From Escherichia phage vB_EcoS_MM-1, in the sequence record PV577657: DNA of 64,000 nucleotides; one strand, given 5' to 3'. The notes under the pieces were generated by a model. It worked only from the letters and a program-made list of their open reading frames with translations. It searched no databases and was not told where the DNA came from. The position numbers and the translations under genes are program-made. Every line of letters begins with the position of its first letter. Position 1 is the first letter of the stretch. Below are positions 3,729-44,799 of this stretch, piece after piece.

Positions 3729-4136
3729 TTATTCGCCTGCGGCTTGTTTTACTTCCTCGGCAACGCCTAACAATTGCGCTACTGCGTCCAGCGTTTCAAG
3801 TTTTGCACTTTCAAGGCTTGCCAGATCATCGGCATCTTTGATAATGCCGGAATCGATAGCGTGTTTTGCAATAACGCGTACATAATGAGCTTTGCGGATT
3901 GAACTACCGCCGCCAACTTTGCGGGGCTTACCGCTTTTTTGATATGCTTTTGCGCTGGTCAATTTTGACCGAACGGATACGGGAGAAGCCGCGCCTACTG
4001 CTTTTGCAATCTCTTTCAGGCCGTCGCTATTTGCGAAATCTAAACCGTTTTCATTAATTAACTGTTGATACATGGAAACAGCTTTCTGAGTGTTTTCTTC
4101 ATTCCATGCGAATTTTGCGGTTTTAGCGTTAGTCAT
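3729..4136 (-). CDS. A2: A2-like pre-early protein
   Basis: 135 aa, immediately downstream of A1-like gene; assignment by size and synteny only. Confidence 0.4.
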   Translation of the reverse strand: MTNAKTAKFAWNEENTQKAVSMYQQLINENGLDFANSDGLKEIAKAVGAASPVSVRSKLTSAKAYQKSGKPRKVGGGSSIRKAHYVRVIAKHAIDSGIIKDADDLASLESAKLETLDAVAQLLGVAEEVKQAAGE

Positions 4137-9028: not shown

Positions 9029-9232
9029 ATGAGCAATAAAATTATTGTAACCAAAATCAGTACAATGGTTGATGTTTTTTACGTGCCAGATACGCCGGAG
9101 AATCGGCAAGCGGTCGAGCGGGGCGAATATGATAAAGTGATTTATGATCACGATGGTTATTATCAGTATTTGGTGGATTCCTACGGGGAGGAGGAGAAGA
9201 TCACGCATCGACTACCGGAGGAGGGTTTATGA
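9029..9232 (+). CDS. hypothetical acidic protein
   Basis: 67 aa; GGAG RBS. Confidence 0.5.
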   Translation: MSNKIIVTKISTMVDVFYVPDTPENRQAVERGEYDKVIYDHDGYYQYLVDSYGEEEKITHRLPEEGL

Positions 9233-9381
9233 AACGATGGTTTAATCACTGGTACAAGCGGTTTTTAGTACGCCGTCGCAAGTCTAGGCATCAAGATGAG
9301 TGGCGGGAGTGGGCAAAGCGTAACGGTTGCCCGCTACTATAATAATCACGGGGCGCAACTATCGGGAAGTGCCCCCAATTC

Positions 9382-9406
9382 TCAAATGAGAATCATTCTC
9401 ATTTGA
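9382..9406. repeat. 25-bp perfect palindrome
   Basis: tcaaatgagaat-c-attctcatttga, 12-1-12. Confidence 0.9.
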
Positions 9407-9626
9407 CCGCGCCCGCGATGGTTAGCCTGCTAATGATTAGGGTGTTACGTGTCGCCTTGTGTGATCGTTAGCGAGCTAACTAATTTTCAAGCCTCCTCCA
9501 ATTTTGCCCTTGTTTTAGTATCTCCACCAAAATTAAACGCGTTAGAATGCGATCTAGGACGTTTTAACGCTATATTAGAATTATTCACTGCGTAGGAATA
9601 CTGTATATTTATACAGTAGGATAAGC

Positions 9627-9708
9627 TGTGGATAAGTCTGTTAATAACACCCCAAAATGGCTAGGATTCTGTCAAGTCAAATCGTGCTGTTAATAAGTCT
9701 GTGGATAA
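9627..9708. promoter_or_regulatory. two DnaA boxes in direct orientation
   Basis: TGTGGATAA at 9627-9635 and 9700-9708, each beside a ctgttaataa motif. Confidence 0.5.
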
Positions 9709-9719
9709 CTTAAATAATA

Positions 9720-9910
9720 GTGTTTCTCACTTCCGTTCTTAAATACGAATCACTATCATTTGCGTTCCACTTTCTAAATGAGAATCATTCTGCTTTTTAA
9801 AGGAGAATCGTTTCACTTCCTGAATAATTCTCACTTCCATTCTTAAATGCGAATTATTATCATTCTCATTCCGCTTTTTAAATGAGAATCATTCTCATTA
9901 TCATTCGCAT
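9720..9910. repeat. array of direct and inverted repeats
   Basis: repeated cttccgttcttaaatacgaat and aaatgagaatcattctcatt units; ORF-free. Confidence 0.8.
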
Positions 9911-9941
9911 TCAGGCGAGCAGGGCAATTGCCCTGCGCTTT

Positions 9942-10542
9942 TGTGCAAATCCGACATTGCTCCACGGGTGTTACGTGCGGGCGTGTATGTGCGAATCCGA
10001 CAATTTTTGGTAGTGTGCAAATCCGACCCGAAAAATTTTTATAGTGTGCAAATCCGACAATGAATTTTCCTAAAAACTCCAGCAATCACGAACTGCGTTC
10101 GAATCCTGTGGGGTATGTGCAAATCCGACACGGTTTTTCTAGGATTAAGATGTGCGAATCCGACAAGATTTTTGTGACTTCGATTGGAGGGTGTGTGATT
10201 GTGTGAGTTTGGGGAGAAGTTGAGAGAGCGAGAAAAATTTGAGGGAACTGCGGGAGGGGCGCATGTTTGGTGCGGAGCACCTGATTTGCGGGGATTTTGG
10301 GGAAGAGTTGAGAAGATTTGGGTTAATTTGAGATTAGTGCAGAAAAAGTAAAATTTTATTAGCTAAATGGAGCAAAATAGCTTGACAAGTGAAAATTCTT
10401 GTGGCTCTAAAAACTCAGGCAATCATGGGCCTTCGGCCCGAAATAATGCTGCCATTTTCAGGAGATTATGTGTCCATGAAAACTTAGGCAATTGTGCAAA
10501 TCCGACCAGTTTTTAAACTTATGTCAGTGTGCAAATCCGACA
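9942..10542 (+). repeat. eight direct copies of 15-mer TGTGC(A/G)AATCCGAC(A/C)
   Basis: copies at 9942, 9988, 10014, 10045, 10116, 10151, 10493, 10528; same orientation, irregular spacing, each followed by a T-run. Confidence 0.9.
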
Positions 10543-10564
10543 GTAATTTCTGGAAATGTGTTTT

Positions 10565-10640
10565 GGAAAAATGCCCTCTAGAAATAACCGCCCTCCCAAT
10601 AACCGCCCTGTATTAAACCGCCTAGTATATGTTCCTAGAA
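10565..10640. repeat. AACCGCCCT and CTAGAAA short direct repeats
   Basis: four AACCGCC(C)T copies within 75 bp. Confidence 0.7.
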
Positions 10641-10986
10641 ACTTAAGAGAACCGCCCTAGAAAGAGGGAGTATTTCGTGAGAACTCTGGAGTTTCTAGGA
10701 AAGTGTTGTGCCATCCTAGCAGAAGAGCGGCAACCGGTGTATCATCTTGAACACAAATATTGCCTTTAAATATTTTTAGTTATTTAAAAGTAAATATACC
10801 CCCATTTCATGTGAGATTCCTCGTGGGGCGCGTGAGTATTACGGAAGAACTCTAATATTGGCCCGCGCTAAGACTAGCCGCTATAGCACAGACGCAAATA
10901 GAGTTGTAATAATCATCGCCCCTAGAGTTCACAATAAGAGTTATTGTTAATCTATGAGATTATTATAACATACATTTTTAATAACG

Positions 10987-11742
10987 TCAAGAAGATTTTA
11001 CTAATGTTTTTGGATTCTTCTTGGCTTTGAGATATATCCCTTTAGATGCTAGATAGATATATGTTGCTAGAAATGAAGATTCTGATCCCGATTCCTCATA
11101 GGTTAACGTACCTCTAGGGTATTTATTTGTTTTAGGAGCATAGTTAAGCACAGCCGCAGTTAATGACCCTAATCCTAGAACATCTGCAAGACGTCTAAAG
11201 GTATTCTCTTCATCATGGATAGCATAAAGAATGTTATCTTCAATATCCGTTAATGGAATTTTACGGGTATGAGATACTGCAATCCGTGCTATCATAGCTC
11301 CAATTGTTTTATTAATATCCTCGAAAGAAACACTCTCCATATATTTTAGAGGGGGAAGATGGTCATATTTACATTTCTTAGGTGGAATAAGAAGTTGTTC
11401 AGGATAAGCCTCTAGTGCCTGACGAACGTTTGCTTCTGGATATGTTGGTAAAGGTTCATCTATAATAACATGTAAGAAATTAGCTCTGTGCCCCTTAGCA
11501 GTTGGATCTAAAGACTTCAATATTTTGTTCATATCCACGTATGAATACGCTAGATCTGCTTGAGGAGCATTAATATCAAACTTAATCTTCTTACCTTCCC
11601 ATTTAGCAGGGAACATCTCACAAACAAACATTACTGCATGTTTAACATCTGGCTCTAGCTCTGATAGACATTTGTGATCTGCTGTTACTGCTAAAGCGAG
11701 TATATTCTTAAATTTATTAGCTTCTTCAATCATATATCCCAT
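10987..11742 (-). CDS. hypothetical protein, AT-rich island
   Basis: 251-aa ORF. Confidence 0.55.
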   Translation of the reverse strand: MGYMIEEANKFKNILALAVTADHKCLSELEPDVKHAVMFVCEMFPAKWEGKKIKFDINAPQADLAYSYVDMNKILKSLDPTAKGHRANFLHVIIDEPLPTYPEANVRQALEAYPEQLLIPPKKCKYDHLPPLKYMESVSFEDINKTIGAMIARIAVSHTRKIPLTDIEDNILYAIHDEENTFRRLADVLGLGSLTAAVLNYAPKTNKYPRGTLTYEESGSESSFLATYIYLASKGIYLKAKKNPKTLVKSS

Positions 11743-12071
11743 GCCTGCTGACTATTATCACTAACTTGTGTCTTTTTCTTTCTTTGTGGTTTAAAAGCTC
11801 CTTTAGTATTGCTTCTATTAGGCTCTAATTTATACCACAGCATTCCTAGCTGGTTAACCATATGAGCAACATTTCTAGGAGTCAATGGTGGTAGAAATTC
11901 GCAGTTTGATATTTCCACTAATATATTAAGTAACTCTGTCTCTTTAGCTTTACTGTTTACTACCACCACGTATTCTAATGTTTCTACCTCGGAATCCTCG
12001 TCTTTATAGTAGAGGCTAAGAGTAATTAAATTGTCACCAGCAGGAGTTATTTTTGTTTTACCAAATATCAT
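11730..12071 (-). CDS. hypothetical protein
   Basis: 113 aa. Confidence 0.5.
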   Translation of the reverse strand: MIFGKTKITPAGDNLITLSLYYKDEDSEVETLEYVVVVNSKAKETELLNILVEISNCEFLPPLTPRNVAHMVNQLGMLWYKLEPNRSNTKGAFKPQRKKKTQVSDNSQQAWDI

Positions 12072-12670
12072 TAATTACCTCTCTTATCTTCATTAATAGC
12101 AGCTCCCAACGCCTCCATAATAGCATCCTCTAAACTTCCATGTTTACCAGGATTATTAAAATGAATAGTACAAACAGAACTCCTAGAAACTCCAGCATCC
12201 GCAGGTGCTACGCTTCGCATATCAGATTCAAAAGCTTCTTGAGTATGTTTCAACTGCACAGAAGGGCCGTAATCTTCACCAACTCGATAAGATTGATTAG
12301 ACGACAGCGTACCACCGCATGGAACATTGTGCAAATCCGATGATTTATTTAACAGTGCAATACCGCCTTTTGACCACGGGTCACTAACAGTGGTACTGGG
12401 ACGATTTACCTCAGTCTTCACAAGTTTGTACTCTGCATCGATTAATGCGTTAATTAGATTATCAGCTGGGATGCGAGCCTTACCAAAAATCTTACGAGCG
12501 TCTTCAAGCTTACCTTCAAAATCTTTACACGCTCTAAGGTCGGTGTGTGCAAATGTTAGTTTCATAGACTTGAACTGTACAGTAGCAGTTAAATCTTTAA
12601 AGCTATAATCCCACGTATTCAATTCATGGTCTGGTACTACTTGAATAGATTGTTGCGCATTAAAAGTCAT
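12071..12670 (-). CDS. hypothetical protein
   Basis: 199 aa; contains a 13-nt partial copy of the 15-mer repeat at 12329-12341. Confidence 0.55.
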   Translation of the reverse strand: MTFNAQQSIQVVPDHELNTWDYSFKDLTATVQFKSMKLTFAHTDLRACKDFEGKLEDARKIFGKARIPADNLINALIDAEYKLVKTEVNRPSTTVSDPWSKGGIALLNKSSDLHNVPCGGTLSSNQSYRVGEDYGPSVQLKHTQEAFESDMRSVAPADAGVSRSSVCTIHFNNPGKHGSLEDAIMEALGAAINEDKRGN

Positions 12671-17331: not shown

Positions 17332-17955
17332 TTAGACATTTATATCACCACGCAATACGGCAGCTACATCTTCCCCTATTTGTAATACTTCACCAGTAGT
17401 GCAGTTGACCACTCTATCATAGCTAGTAAACTTACCTGATACAATATCTTCTAGAGGAATAGGAGTTTTGCTCATCTCAAATGAGACATTGATGTAACGA
17501 GGGTCACGTAGAGAAGTAGTATGTACGTGTCCGTGAATATTTAACTTGCCCCGAAGTTCATTGGGGTGCAAAGGACAATGAGATAGCCAAAACTTTTTGC
17601 CACCACCAGTCTGTTTACCTAGAGCCTGAATATCATCGTAAACTTCTACTAAATCTTTAATACAGAGTCCTTGACGTTCCGCATCGTGGTTGCCCATAAT
17701 AAGTTGATTAGGAACATTGTGGATAACCGACTTTAGCTTGGCCAAGCCTTCACGACCTACTGCAATGTCTCCTAACAAGATGAGTTTAGTACGCTTGCCA
17801 ATGTGCTTGGAGAGAGTATCCAGAATGTACTCGTCATGTTCTTTCATATTCTTAAACCACGGACGGAAACGTAATGCCCCAGGATGATCTAAGTGCAAAT
17901 CCGACCAAAATTTAACTTTCATTATTCTTTCCTTTATTCCGAATAATATTATCAA
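17332..17955 (-). CDS. calcineurin-like metallophosphoesterase
   Basis: motifs SDLHLD, GDIAVGR, GNHD, GHVH; likely true start at internal MKVKF; contains a 14-nt partial copy of the 15-mer repeat. Confidence 0.6.
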   Translation of the reverse strand: MIILFGIKERIMKVKFWSDLHLDHPGALRFRPWFKNMKEHDEYILDTLSKHIGKRTKLILLGDIAVGREGLAKLKSVIHNVPNQLIMGNHDAERQGLCIKDLVEVYDDIQALGKQTGGGKKFWLSHCPLHPNELRGKLNIHGHVHTTSLRDPRYINVSFEMSKTPIPLEDIVSGKFTSYDRVVNCTTGEVLQIGEDVAAVLRGDINV

Positions 17956-22529: not shown

Positions 22530-23282
22530 TTATCCAACTAGTGGTTCTAGCTCTAAGTCACAGAAGTTATACACTTCTAGTTTAAGGTTATTGATACCCT
22601 CGAATTTATTAACTAATTCGTGAGTGATATATTTTGCAGGAATACCACTTTCAGATGGATGATCTGATTTAATAGTGAACTTCTGCTCAGCGGGTACTAC
22701 ATTTACTATCAAAGAATCCATATCTAAATGATTTGTTTCTCTGAGTAACTCTCCTTCATTGGGGAATCTAACATCTGTTATTACGGCGACATCTGGGTCG
22801 TCTTTAGCGATGGATTGCTCCAGAATTATGAGCCAAATGCGTTCATGCACCAGCTGCCTTCCTAGCTCTGTCCCTACGAGCTGTAACATTTTTCTCGGAG
22901 AAATAAATAAACTATAAAGTCCGTCTTCTTTATTCTCTGAGATAAGTTGTTGAGGATTAAGATATTTTTCCTCAAAAATAGGCCAAACGTACGAGAAGTC
23001 TTCAAACTTATCGATACCATACTTAAACCACACATCTCTGGCTCGCTCCAATTGAGATTGTGTGACCGTAAACCATTGGTCAACCTCTTTTCCCTTGCGC
23101 TCTCCTAGAAACTCTGGAGTTACACCGAGGATTACGGATGCAAGTTCATAAACGGGCTTAGCAAAACTGTAACGACGGGGTAAACACGTTGGATACGTGT
23201 CATTACACCAATCGATAATTAGTTTTGCAACAGTGTCTTTTCCAGAACCAGCCTCACCATGCAGACCTACTAATACTGACAT
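22530..23282 (-). CDS. dnk: deoxynucleoside monophosphate kinase
   Basis: 250 aa; P-loop GEAGSGKDT at N-terminus. Confidence 0.65.
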   Translation of the reverse strand: MSVLVGLHGEAGSGKDTVAKLIIDWCNDTYPTCLPRRYSFAKPVYELASVILGVTPEFLGERKGKEVDQWFTVTQSQLERARDVWFKYGIDKFEDFSYVWPIFEEKYLNPQQLISENKEDGLYSLFISPRKMLQLVGTELGRQLVHERIWLIILEQSIAKDDPDVAVITDVRFPNEGELLRETNHLDMDSLIVNVVPAEQKFTIKSDHPSESGIPAKYITHELVNKFEGINNLKLEVYNFCDLELEPLVG

Positions 23283-36846: not shown

Positions 36847-36887
36847 TTAAATACAGAAAAGCCCGCGCTCTCGTAGGAAACGCGGGC
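36847..36887 (-). terminator. rho-independent terminator of SPFH gene
   Basis: gcccgcg / cgcgggc stem, U-run on minus strand. Confidence 0.6.
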
Positions 36888-36912
36888 TTGGTTCGAAGAT
36901 TACGTGTAACTA

Positions 36913-44322: not shown

Positions 44323-44799
44323 TCACATCTCAGCCATTTCAGCTTCAGTAATAACTGTATTACATAAGGCGTCTACAGCTTCATTACCACTAATACCAGA
44401 GTGCCCTTTAACCTTAATAAAGGTAGGATTAGTATTATGAAAGTTGATATACTGTTGTGTTAATTTAAATGCTTCCTGCCAAAGTTCTAGATTAAGAGGA
44501 ACTTCACCATCTGCTTTCTTCCAGCCTTTCCTTTGCCAAGAAAACATCCAACTTTCCATGCCATTTTTGCAATAAGCAGAGTCAGTATAGATAGCAATTG
44601 GTCTATTATCTTTTTTAACAGACCAACGTAGAGCTTCTACAATAGCTGTGAGTTCCATCTCATTATTTGTAGTTTTAGGATTATAACCAGATTTAGAACC
44701 TAAACGATCGTCGTTATCATCATAGACAATAAAACCCCAAGCACCCGGACCTGGGTTAGACTTACAAGCACCATCTGTATAAATGTGGAAAACCGACAT
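44323..44799 (-). CDS. rnh: ribonuclease H
   Basis: 'IYTDGAC...GPGAWG' N-terminus; start moved to the ATG after GGGAGG RBS. Confidence 0.7.
   Translation of the reverse strand: MSVFHIYTDGACKSNPGPGAWGFIVYDDNDDRLGSKSGYNPKTTNNEMELTAIVEALRWSVKKDNRPIAIYTDSAYCKNGMESWMFSWQRKGWKKADGEVPLNLELWQEAFKLTQQYINFHNTNPTFIKVKGHSGISGNEAVDALCNTVITEAEMAEM

What the first reader, a model, noticed from the sequence alone, without database searches (positions are those of the whole stretch)
9942..10542. Eight co-oriented copies of a 15-mer, with partial copies inside two distant coding regions
TGTGC(A/G)AATCCGAC(A/C) occurs eight times in 600 bp of ORF-free DNA, always in the same orientation and usually followed by a T-run. 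Partial copies lie inside coding sequence at 12329-12341 and 17893-17906, which is unlikely by chance for 12-14 nt matches in 64 kb. The pattern suggests a binding-site array, plausibly linked to the injection-stop or terminal-repeat boundary of T5-like genomes.
Basis: partly seen in the sequence, partly recalled or inferred. Interest (0 to 1): 0.55.

Follow-up and report, generated by a model that had tools for sequence, protein, structure and literature searches.

The report
T5 "direct repeat D" site array
The eight 15-mers are the already-annotated "direct repeat D" elements of phage T5 and its relatives: a conserved, one-directional array of likely protein-binding sites that starts where DNA injection pauses and straddles the end of the terminal repeat, and whose function is still unproven.

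Summary
Eight exact, co-oriented copies of TGTGCRAATCCGACM lie at 9942-10542, and exact copies of the 12-nt core sit inside two genes. The window is the left end of a T5-like phage (Tequintavirus).

The motif is not new. GenBank AY587007 (T5, 2005) annotates the same sites as "direct repeat D copy 1-9", inside the "injection stop signal" / Repeat Region 3. No function has been assigned to them in the literature I could read.

What I added:
- The core GTGCAAATCCGA and the strict co-orientation persist across three Demerecviridae subfamilies (T5, Pectobacterium My1, Vibrio Dax).
- Copy 1 abuts the 7.9% nick in T5.
- In eight records of seven phages the terminal repeat ends between copy 6 and copy 7 (window 10407|10408).
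- The array is redundant: a close relative lacks copies 2-4.

Best guess (about 0.35): the repeats are docking sites for the pre-early DNA-binding protein A2, which captures the DNA as second-step transfer resumes. A2's predicted recognition helix is invariant wherever the core is invariant. The small terminase's helix-turn-helix varies between those same lineages.

Rivals are a terminase recognition site, an iteron-like origin, and a host-factor anchor. The feature is already known; interest is modest.

The parts
9942..9956 (+). DRD copy 1 (TGTGCAAATCCGACA); begins 3 nt after the nick position inferred by homology to the T5 7.9% nick
9988..10002 (+). DRD copy 2 (TGTGCGAATCCGACA)
10014..10028 (+). 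DRD copy 3
10045..10059 (+). DRD copy 4 (the copy most often lost in relatives)
10116..10130 (+). DRD copy 5. It sits 10 bp further right in T5 because of two compensating 10-bp indels; the copy 4 to copy 6 distance stays at 106 bp
10151..10165 (+). DRD copy 6, the last copy inside the terminal repeat
10493..10507 (+). DRD copy 7, the first copy outside the terminal repeat (starts 86 bp after the cut)
10528..10542 (+). DRD copy 8
12328..12342 (+). Intragenic copy with an exact 12-nt core plus a T-run, inside the minus-strand gene 12071-12670 (T5.019 homologue). It is conserved at the same place in most Tequintavirus- and Epseptimavirus-like loci
17892..17906 (+). Second intragenic copy with an exact 12-nt core, in the minus-strand ORF 17332-17955. 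No equivalent was found in T5, so it is lineage-specific
9932..9938 (-). Nick-site consensus CCTGCGC. By homology to the T5 major nick at 7.9%, the minus strand would be nicked between 9938 and 9939
9919..9936 (+). GC-rich hairpin (T5 palindrome J) with a T-run; terminator-like, closing the rightward pre-early transcription unit
9627..9708 (+). Two consensus DnaA boxes (TGTGGATAA at 9627 and 9700), each paired with TGTTAATAA, in the same orientation as the DRD copies
9724..9912 (+). AT-rich repeat block (GC about 0.31), equivalent to the T5 direct repeats C and E
10205..10333 (+). G-rich repeats (GAGTTTGGGGAGAAGTTGAGA-like, three copies; GC skew +0.62) between copy 6 and the cut. Related G-rich repeats occur in My1 and Dax
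10380..10407 (+). Conserved box GCTTGACAAGTGAAAATTCTTGTGGCTC ending at the right end of the terminal repeat (cut between 10407 and 10408)
10962..10990 (-). Near-consensus extended -10 sigma-70 promoter pointing left into the non-coding block. It is conserved in T5, My1 and Roth49. Its relation to the array is unknown
3729..4136 (-). Gene A2 (pre-early DNA-binding protein), the candidate reader of the motif

Best explanation
What it is (shown). These are the 'direct repeat D' (DRD) elements of the non-coding 'Repeat Region 3' / injection-stop region at the right end of the left terminal repeat of a T5-like phage. They form a conserved, strictly one-directional, redundant array with an asymmetric 12-15 bp core (GTGCAAATCCGA), usually followed by a T-tract.

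Copy 1 starts 3-4 nt from the T5 7.9% nick, at the boundary between first-step and second-step DNA. Six copies lie inside the terminal repeat. Two or three lie just beyond it, and one more is conserved about 1.8 kb further in.

How it most likely works (inferred). Each repeat is a docking site for one molecule of a phage-encoded DNA-binding protein, most probably the pre-early protein A2, which is essential for second-step transfer.

A2 is predicted to have a helix-turn-helix, a basic glycine-rich linker and a second small helical domain. That layout suits an asymmetric bipartite site plus an adjacent T-tract.

When injection pauses, the array is the next DNA to enter the cell. Newly made A2, with A1, would bind the successive co-oriented sites as they emerge. 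This would hold the DNA against backsliding and bias inward movement, like a ratchet or capture device, and so restart transfer.

The terminase cut that defines the repeat end lies in the gap of the array. It is more probably specified by the lineage-variable G-rich repeats and the TTGACAA box in that gap than by the DRD copies themselves.
For: Identity:
- AY587007 annotates DRD copies 1-9 at the homologous positions, with the nick and the LTR end in the same relative places (mapping).

Real and constrained:
- There are 11 matches against 0.24 expected and 10 against 0.18 for the core.
- The core is invariant while copy number and spacing change in My1, Klebsiella Roth49 and Vibrio Dax.
- No reverse-strand copy occurs in the non-coding array spans scanned or in the multi-copy loci.
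- Two compensating 10-bp indels keep the overall spacing.
- The intragenic copy uses a single codon at each of six positions, while the neighbouring invariant residues vary at third positions.

Position at the injection pause:
- Copy 1 abuts the 7.9% nick, inside the annotated iss.
- The first-step fragment is put at about 7.9% (Davison).
- No copies occur anywhere in the first-step DNA left of the nick.

- A2 is a DNA-binding protein essential for second-step transfer, with no known target.
- Its distribution (Demerecviridae only) matches that of the motif.
- Its predicted recognition helix (VRSKL) and RKAHYVR segment are unchanged in T5, My1 and Roth49. Dax keeps the helix and has one substitution (RKEHYVR) plus a diverged Gly linker.
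- The helix changes only in the Proteus phage, whose array has decayed.
- The TerS helix-turn-helix differs in every lineage that shares the identical core.
Against: - No binding data exist. The A2 link rests on conservation patterns in five lineages, with a single 'negative' lineage.
- A2's conserved basic region could equally serve non-specific DNA binding or contact with A1.
- A2 is reported to be a dimer, and dimers usually prefer palindromes.
- The fold search gave no significant match.
- The hypothesis does not explain why the terminal-repeat end sits between copy 6 and copy 7 in all three subfamilies.
- It does not explain the need for the copies in the right terminal repeat.
- A close relative (MM-2) appears viable with copies 2-4 deleted.
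- Two-step transfer has been shown experimentally only for T5 and BF23, not for My1 or the Vibrio phages.
- Pre-early proteins are made while the array is still outside the cytoplasm, so access depends on where exactly the DNA halts. That point is known only to within a few hundred bp.
Confidence: 0.35

Rival explanations
1. Terminase recognition (cos/pac-like) site. The two DRD clusters are binding sites for the small terminase subunit. They would wrap or bend the DNA on both sides of the right terminal-repeat boundary, position the cut at 10407|10408 and start packaging from the right end.
For: - The cut lies in the gap between copy 6 and copy 7 in T5 (two records), BF23, MM-2, X5, phiR2-01, My1 and Dax.
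- Co-oriented repeats with T-tracts flanking a cut resemble the lambda cosB R sites, the P1 pac hexamers and SPP1 pacL/pacR (from my own knowledge).
- The left boundary has no comparable array, as expected if only one end carries the initiation site.
- The copies outside the repeat adjoin it only in the concatemer.
- An old GenBank entry labels the TerS ORF 'putative sciB', a nick gene, and copy 1 abuts a nick.
Against: - The putative recognition helix of the TerS helix-turn-helix differs in each lineage that shares the identical 12-nt core.
- The distance from the nearest copy to the cut varies widely: 62, 245 and 353 bp.
- The gap has its own conserved candidate terminase elements, the G-rich repeats and the TTGACAA box, and these do vary with lineage.
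- The conserved copy 1.8 kb away is unexplained.
- The packaging direction of T5 is not established. One paper even says the left end is packed first.
Confidence: 0.22
2. Iteron-type replication origin or recombination site in the terminal repeat. DnaA boxes, an AT-rich block and co-oriented DRD 'iterons' would be bound by a phage initiator, for example the UL9-like helicase, possibly activated by the conserved leftward promoter.
For: - The order DnaA boxes (9627, 9700), AT-rich repeats (9724-9912), direct repeats (9942-10165) matches the layout of P1, F and pSC101 origins (plasmid layouts from my own knowledge).
- The phage encodes a protein that matches Pfam Herpes_ori_bp.
- A strong conserved promoter points into the block.
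- Extra outlying copies recall the control iterons of plasmids.
Against: - Spacing is irregular (26-81 bp), not the regular roughly 22 bp of iterons.
- No initiator gene lies next to the array.
- The Pfam match covers only the helicase core.
- Electron-microscopy mapping is reported to place T5 origins near the centre of the genome (Davison).
- The terminal-repeat cut inside the array has no role in this model.
Confidence: 0.1
3. Host-factor anchor that causes the injection stop. The repeats would be weak sites for a conserved host protein, such as DnaA extending from the neighbouring consensus boxes as in Davison's membrane-DnaA model, and this protein would arrest the entering DNA.
For: - A 12-nt core unchanged from E. 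coli phages to Vibrio phages, while phage proteins fall to 31-46% identity, fits a conserved host partner.
- The reverse complement ATTTGCACA matches 8 of 9 positions of the DnaA box TTWTNCACA. It has the same orientation as the two consensus boxes 230-320 bp upstream.
- The array lies inside the annotated iss.
Against: - The invariant CCGA part lies outside any DnaA box.
- The G variant matches only 7 of 9 positions.
- The spacing is not the 11-bp array used by DnaA oligomers.
- No paired copies of the core occur in Enterobacterales or Vibrio genomes.
- If the pause is near 7.9%, the array has not yet entered the cytoplasm.
- The copies beyond the terminal repeat and 1.8 kb further in cannot stop anything at 8%.
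- No CRP or LexA consensus I checked by eye fits.
Confidence: 0.1
4. RNA-level element. The conserved leftward promoter would produce a non-coding RNA carrying reverse-complement DRD units (UCGGAUUUGCAC) that act as repeated protein-binding motifs, a sponge-like RNA.
For: - A near-consensus promoter lies at the same position in four lineages, with no ORF downstream.
- In My1 a minus-strand terminator follows after about 420 nt, downstream of three cluster-2 copies.
Against: - There is no Rfam match.
- No terminator is predicted in the window or in T5.
- Cluster 1 lies 800-1000 nt from the promoter, beyond the genome-end cut.
- The intragenic copies lie on the opposite side of the promoter.
- I did not examine any transcript evidence.
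Confidence: 0.03

Closest known systems
Direct repeat D (DRD) copies 1-9 of bacteriophage T5, in Repeat Region 3 / the 'injection stop signal' (Wang et al. 2005, GenBank AY587007; Davison 2020 preprint)
   Same: Same 15-mer, same order and spacing, same flanking landmarks (palindrome J hairpin, 7.9% nick, direct repeats A, C and E, LTR end between copies 6 and 7). The region is directly homologous at 86-92% identity.
   Different: - This phage has 8 rather than 9 non-coding copies; T5 copy 9 is missing.
- Copy 5 is shifted by 10 bp.
- There is an extra exact-core copy in a gene at 17893.
Terminase recognition sites with repeated small-subunit binding elements around the cut (lambda cosB R1-R3, P1 pac hexamers, SPP1 pacL/pacR, the repeat arrays next to the T7 terminal repeat)
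   Same: Short repeats lie on both sides of the site where the genome end is cut. Bent or T-tract DNA is present. Only one genome end carries the complex site.
   Different: - Binding by terminase is untested here.
- The TerS helix-turn-helix varies where the motif does not.
- The copies lie 62-353 bp from the cut, and one lies 1.8 kb away.
Iteron-type plasmid origins (P1 oriR, F oriS, pSC101, RK2 oriV)
   Same: DnaA boxes, then an AT-rich block, then co-oriented direct repeats, with outlying extra copies.
   Different: Irregular spacing, a shorter unit, no adjacent initiator gene, and no evidence of origin activity.
Protein-ratchet or pulling mechanisms of phage genome entry (T7 entry driven by RNA polymerase; binding-protein ratchet models)
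   Same: Internalisation of the genome after an initial pause depends on newly made proteins acting on the entering DNA.
   Different: In T7 the motor is transcription from promoters on the leading end. Here the proposed agent is a site-specific DNA-binding protein on a dedicated site array. The mechanism is inferred, not shown.

Membership tests
T5 direct repeat D (DRD) of Repeat Region 3 | 15-bp unit TGTGC(A/G)AATCCGAC(A/C), all copies in one orientation | tested here: met
   Eight exact copies, all on the + strand. Identical units are annotated as DRD in AY587007.
T5 direct repeat D (DRD) of Repeat Region 3 | Located in the non-coding block at the right end of the left terminal repeat, starting just after the 7.9% nick | tested here: met
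   The window aligns colinearly with T5. The hairpin, the CCTGCGC nick consensus and copy 1 are identical.
T5 direct repeat D (DRD) of Repeat Region 3 | Six copies inside the terminal repeat and further copies just outside it | tested here: met
   The repeat end maps to window 10407, from the record ends of T5, BF23, MM-2, X5 and phiR2-01. That gives six copies inside and two outside.
Terminase cos/pac recognition site | Lies at or around the terminase cut that makes the genome end | tested here: met
   The cut lies between copy 6 and copy 7 in eight records of seven phages from three subfamilies.
Terminase cos/pac recognition site | Repeats are bound by the small terminase subunit | tested here: inconclusive
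   There is no binding assay. Indirectly, the TerS recognition helix differs between lineages that share the identical core, which argues against this but does not exclude it.
Terminase cos/pac recognition site | Required in cis for packaging and terminus formation | not testable with these tools
   This needs phage genetics or in vitro packaging.
Iteron-type replication origin | Regularly spaced (about 22 bp) direct repeats of 17-22 bp | tested here: not met
   Spacings are 46, 26, 31, 71, 35, 342 and 35 bp, and the unit is 15 bp.
Iteron-type replication origin | Adjacent DnaA boxes and an AT-rich unwinding region | tested here: met
   TGTGGATAA at 9627 and 9700. GC is 0.31 over 9700-9900.
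Iteron-type replication origin | Initiator gene next to the repeats; origin activity | tested here: not met
   The flanking genes are small hypothetical ORFs. Origin activity is not testable here, and the literature places T5 origins near the centre of the genome.
DnaA-box cluster | 9-mer TT(A/T)TNCACA | tested here: not met
   The repeat gives ATTTGCACA (8 of 9) or ATTCGCACA (7 of 9), read directly. The invariant CCGA lies outside the box.
Palindromic operator of a symmetric dimer (CRP / LexA type) | Dyad symmetry with the family's half-site spacing | tested here: not met
   Only TGT-N9-ACA is symmetric. That spacing is one off LexA (N8) and CRP (N10) (sequence; consensus sites from my own knowledge). 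The outer bases are not conserved in My1 or Dax.
Known RNA family (Rfam) | Match to a covariance model | tested here: not met
   No match at E<=1 over 9300-11100 on either strand.

The most novel reading that the evidence does not exclude
The DRD array is the specific DNA target of the pre-early protein A2. [quoted passage not shown] The system would be conserved across Demerecviridae from enterobacterial to Vibrio phages.
Probability: 0.3. Interest if true: 0.65.

Novelty: already known. Interest (0 to 1): 0.33.

Why it matters
How T5 stops injecting after 8% of its genome, and how A1 and A2 restart it, has been unexplained for more than 50 years. As of 2026 the region is still described only as 'rich in repeats and palindromes'.

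The repeats themselves are a rediscovery. The comparative picture built here narrows the possibilities to a few directly testable ones. That picture has four parts:
- an invariant asymmetric core across three subfamilies;
- an array that starts at the nick and pause point;
- a genome-end cut in the gap of the array;
- an A2 recognition helix that is invariant while the terminase helix-turn-helix is variable.

If A2 binds these sites, a simple EMSA plus a repeat-deletion phage would give the first cis-trans handle on second-step transfer. If terminase binds them, this would be, as far as I know, the first defined packaging signal of a phage with long terminal repeats.

Tried and rejected
- **Chance or neutral duplication:** rejected by shuffles and by core invariance against drifting spacers across subfamilies.
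- **Coding sequence:** rejected. Only short mechanical ORFs occur, and the T5 records treat the block as non-coding.
- **Known RNA family:** none found. No credible small ORF follows the leftward promoter.
- **CRP, LexA and DnaA sites (checked by eye):** spacing or consensus is not met.
- **Host chromosomal arrays of the core:** none in Enterobacterales or Vibrio. The eight hits were one mis-binned T5-like fragment and unrelated or unidentified short repeats.
- **Motif as a general part of nick sites:** rejected. The other T5 major nicks (22336, 39746, 78573) have no adjacent copy.
- **Motif at the left terminal-repeat boundary:** absent.
- **Phyletic discrimination of A2 against TerS:** failed, because both are confined to Demerecviridae.
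- **Sequence search of A2 and TerS against PDB:** nothing found. The Foldseek search with the A2 model gave no significant hit. Pfam gave no family for either protein.
- **Codon-level test of the intragenic copy:** suggestive but not significant gene-wide.
- **Fur-box reading of the AT-rich repeats:** matches of 15-16 of 19, but similar scores occur elsewhere in the window, so I left it as a weak note.
- **Papers I could not obtain:** Davison 2015 and Rhoades 1984 are not held. I did not look up Heusterspreute 1987 or Wang 2005.
- **Kenya-K16 and Kenya-K36:** their annotated repeat ends map elsewhere (window 9715 and 10998). I treated them as unreliable software calls.

Full report
**1.

The region 9942-10542 contains eight exact matches to TGTGC(A/G)AATCCGAC(A/C), all on the + strand. 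They lie at 9942, 9988, 10014, 10045, 10116, 10151, 10493 and 10528. With up to two mismatches the window has 11 matches against 0.24 expected, and no shuffle comes close.

The 12-nt core GTGCAAATCCGA gives 10 matches at up to one mismatch, all on the + strand, against 0.18 expected. The two 'partial copies' in coding DNA (12328, 17892) both carry the exact core, so they are not chance matches. A hit at 44784 is compatible with chance.

Six of the eight copies are followed by at least four T within about 12 nt. Across 151 distinct instances from relatives, the T-tract 5-7 nt past the motif is a real flank feature. Only short mechanical ORFs overlap the region.

**2. What the window is**

The stretch is 99.9% identical to Escherichia phage ECOP18 and 99.3% identical to vB_EcoS_MM-2. 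It is 86-92% identical to many Tequintavirus and Epseptimavirus genomes. The window starts at the left genome end; compare the first bases with T5.

**3. The repeats are already known**

The T5 reference AY543070 annotates an 'injection stop signal (iss)' at 9140-10149, a major nick at 9748/9749 and the left terminal repeat (LTR) end at 10219. T5 has the same motif at 9752, 9798, 9824, 9855, 9936, 9961, 10305 and 10340, and a weaker copy at 10477.

The other T5 record, AY587007 (Wang et al. 2005), explicitly annotates these sites as 'direct repeat D copy 1-9'. In it the 7.9% nick lies immediately before copy 1, and the LTR end (10139) lies between copies 6 and 7.

Davison's 2020 preprint lists 'nine copies of direct repeat DRD' in 'Repeat Region 3'. 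It assigns them no role and favours the DnaA-box-bearing inverted repeats as the stop signal. [quoted passage not shown] So the finding rediscovers a named element whose function is open.

**4. Comparative anatomy**

*Distribution.* An exact-match scan of IMG/VR finds multi-copy arrays only on 108-122 kb contigs, which are T5-like. Single hits elsewhere are consistent with chance.

*Spacing.* In about 30 loci the start-to-start spacing is 46, 26, 31, 71 or 81, 35 or 25, about 343, 35, sometimes 137, and then 1.7-2.1 kb to a copy inside the T5.019 homologue. No copy is ever on the other strand.

*Copy 5.* The 10-bp shift of copy 5 results from two compensating 10-bp indels, which keep the copy 4 to copy 6 distance at 106 bp.

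*Distant relatives.*
- Pectobacterium My1 (Mccorquodalevirinae) has 6 + 4 copies with 17- and 27-bp spacing.
- Klebsiella Roth49 has 5 + 4 copies.
- Vibrio Dax (Ermolyevavirinae; A1 only 31-32% identical) has 6 + 2 copies.
- All keep the core GTGCAAATCCGA, and Dax allows more mismatches.
- In T5, Roth49, a Klebsiella-type contig and Dax, copy 1 follows the nick consensus GCGC after exactly 4 nt.
- A Proteus phage (Novosibvirus) keeps the landmarks but has only about two degenerate copies.

*Redundancy.* MM-2 lacks copies 2-4 in both repeats through a CGAATCC microhomology deletion, so the array is redundant.

**5. The terminal-repeat end lies inside the array**

The right record ends of BF23 (PhageTerm-determined), MM-2 and X5, the annotated ends in T5 (two records) and the annotated end in Yersinia phiR2-01 all map to one homologous base. 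That base is window 10407|10408 (…CTTGTGGCTC|TAAAAACTCAGG…). It lies 244 bp after copy 6 and 86 bp before copy 7.

In My1 the annotated end (12854) again falls between six inner and four outer copies. Its context (ATTGACAAATGAAAAA…|AAAAAC) is homologous to that of T5. In Dax the record's own 8600-bp duplicated ends place the boundary between six inner and two outer copies.

The left boundary, as it would appear in a concatemer, has no such motif or array. The gap before the cut holds strongly G-skewed repeats (GC skew +0.62) and a conserved TTGACAA box. These elements recur, but diverge, between subfamilies. Two Kenya-series records annotate discordant repeat ends, and I regard them as unreliable.

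**6. Who reads the motif?**

The core is asymmetric. Only the outer TGT…ACA is symmetric, and that symmetry is lost in My1 and Dax. This points to a monomer-like or head-to-tail reader rather than a symmetric dimer.

There are two obvious phage candidates:
- A2: pre-early, DNA-binding, essential for second-step transfer; PHROG 'DNA binding protein'.
- T5.156: PHROG 'terminase small subunit'.

Both are confined to Demerecviridae, so distribution does not separate them. Sequence conservation does.

*TerS.* Its N-terminal helix-turn-helix differs in every lineage that shares the identical core. The putative recognition helix reads SEIAFRDIM (T5), KEVDCRLML (My1), EEPKFREIM (Roth49) and PVAEVEAQL (Dax).

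*A2.* An AlphaFold model (pLDDT 85) shows a helix-turn-helix whose second helix is PVSVRSKLTS. It is followed by a disordered basic Gly-rich linker (KPRKVGGGSS) and an RKAHYVR helix that opens a second small helical domain.
- VRSKL is unchanged in T5, My1, Roth49 and Dax.
- RKAHYVR is unchanged in T5, My1 and Roth49, and Dax has one substitution (RKEHYVR).
- The Gly-rich linker is conserved in T5, My1 and Roth49 but has diverged in Dax.
- The recognition helix changes only in the Proteus phage (VRTKL, RKAHVVF), whose array has decayed.

This is the only discriminating evidence I could obtain. It is weak, with five lineages and one negative. The Foldseek search gave no significant match, only weak tri-helical HTH resemblances.

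**7. Best explanation and rivals**

I rate the A2-docking (capture or ratchet) reading at about 0.35. The array begins exactly where first-step DNA ends, and no copy lies in the first-step DNA itself. A2 is needed to resume transfer, and its reading surface is conserved wherever the core is.

On this view the terminase cut in the gap is specified by the lineage-variable gap elements. This reading does not explain why the cut stays inside the array, which is the main support for the terminase rival (about 0.22).

An iteron-like origin (about 0.10) fits the order DnaA boxes, AT-rich block, direct repeats and the conserved inward promoter. It fails on spacing, on the lack of an adjacent initiator gene and on the reported origin positions.

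A host-factor anchor (about 0.10) fits the extreme invariance and the 8-of-9 DnaA-box resemblance. It fails on the invariant CCGA outside the box, the spacing and the absence of host arrays. An RNA-level role is unlikely (about 0.03).

**8. Verdict**

The element is already known, as DRD of T5.

What this analysis adds:
- the array's conservation across subfamilies;
- its fixed relation to the genome-end cut;
- a testable candidate reader.

Noticed in passing
window 10962-10990 (- strand); T5 L004 10851-10879; My1 L133 13606-13634; Roth49 L134 11167-11196: A near-consensus extended -10 sigma-70 promoter (11-12 of 12 matches, TG present) sits just past the 3' end of the last early gene and points left into the non-coding block. 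It is conserved in four lineages. No ORF of 30 aa or more and no Rfam family lies downstream. In My1 a minus-strand terminator follows about 420 nt later.
   Followed up: partly
window 9932-9985, 23094-23140, 36862-36910: The sites homologous to T5 major nicks share more than the published GCGC consensus. The pattern is YYGCGC|T, then about 30 nt, then (G/A)(A/T)TTACG. This could be the extra specificity needed to explain why only some GCGC sites are nicked.
   Followed up: partly
window 10070-10088, 10407-10425, 10477-10491: The sequence that begins at the terminal-repeat cut (CTAAAAACTCAGGCAATCA) has a near-copy between DRD copies 4 and 5 (CTAAAAACTCCAGCAATCA). A third related copy lies just before copy 7. 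In T5 another CCTAAAAACTC lies about 400 bp left of the left junction.
   Followed up: partly
window 10205-10333: An extremely G-skewed stretch (GC skew +0.62) holds three GAGTTTGGGGAGAAGTTGAGA-like repeats between DRD copy 6 and the genome-end cut. Related G-rich repeats occur at the same place in My1 and Vibrio Dax. They are candidate terminase elements.
   Followed up: partly
window 10427-10439: A stable hairpin GGGCCTTCGGCCC (UUCG-type loop) lies 20 bp outside the terminal-repeat end. It is conserved in T5 and phiR2-01.
   Followed up: no
window 9849-9902 (also 9382): The AT-rich repeats left of the array (GAGAATCATTCTCATTATC) match the 19-bp Fur-box consensus at 15-16 of 19 positions. This is intriguing because the T5 receptor FhuA is Fur-regulated. 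However, similar scores occur elsewhere in the window (for example 228-252), so the match is weak.
   Followed up: partly
T5 (L005) record positions 78935-78964: T5 has a tandem pair of near-perfect copies (TGTGCAAATCCTACA GGTGCAAATCCGACA), same orientation, inside gene D13. It lies about 360 bp from the 64.8% major nick. This is outside the present window.
   Followed up: no
GenBank M62847 (L140) 2209-2272; Proteus phage L149 4031-4567: A 1991 T5 entry labels the start of the ORF now classed as small terminase as 'putative sciB' (single-chain-interruption gene). A Proteus relative annotates a 'putative nicking site-specific endonuclease' between the terminase and portal genes. Nicking may be linked to the packaging module.
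   Followed up: partly
L001 / L008 (phage MM-2) versus window 9997-10104: MM-2, 99.3% identical to the window, lacks 108 bp including DRD copies 2-4 in both terminal repeats. The junction lies at a CGAATCC microhomology. This is either a natural deletion or an assembly collapse.
   Followed up: yes
L002/L009 (Kenya-K16), L010 (Kenya-K36): The annotated direct terminal repeats of these records end at positions equivalent to window 9715 and 10998. That disagrees with the common end at 10407 found in T5, BF23, MM-2, X5 and phiR2-01, so the annotations are probably inaccurate.
   Followed up: partly
L141 (SABI01000336.1, 'Spirochaetia bacterium' MAG, 2589 bp): This contig carries DRD copies 7 and 8 and the intragenic copy at T5-like spacing. 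It is a T5-like phage fragment mis-binned into a bacterial MAG.
   Followed up: partly
PMC3517423 (discussion): [quoted passage not shown] This conflicts with the usual last-in-first-out rule, given that the left end is injected first. The packaging direction of T5 appears not to be firmly documented.
   Followed up: no
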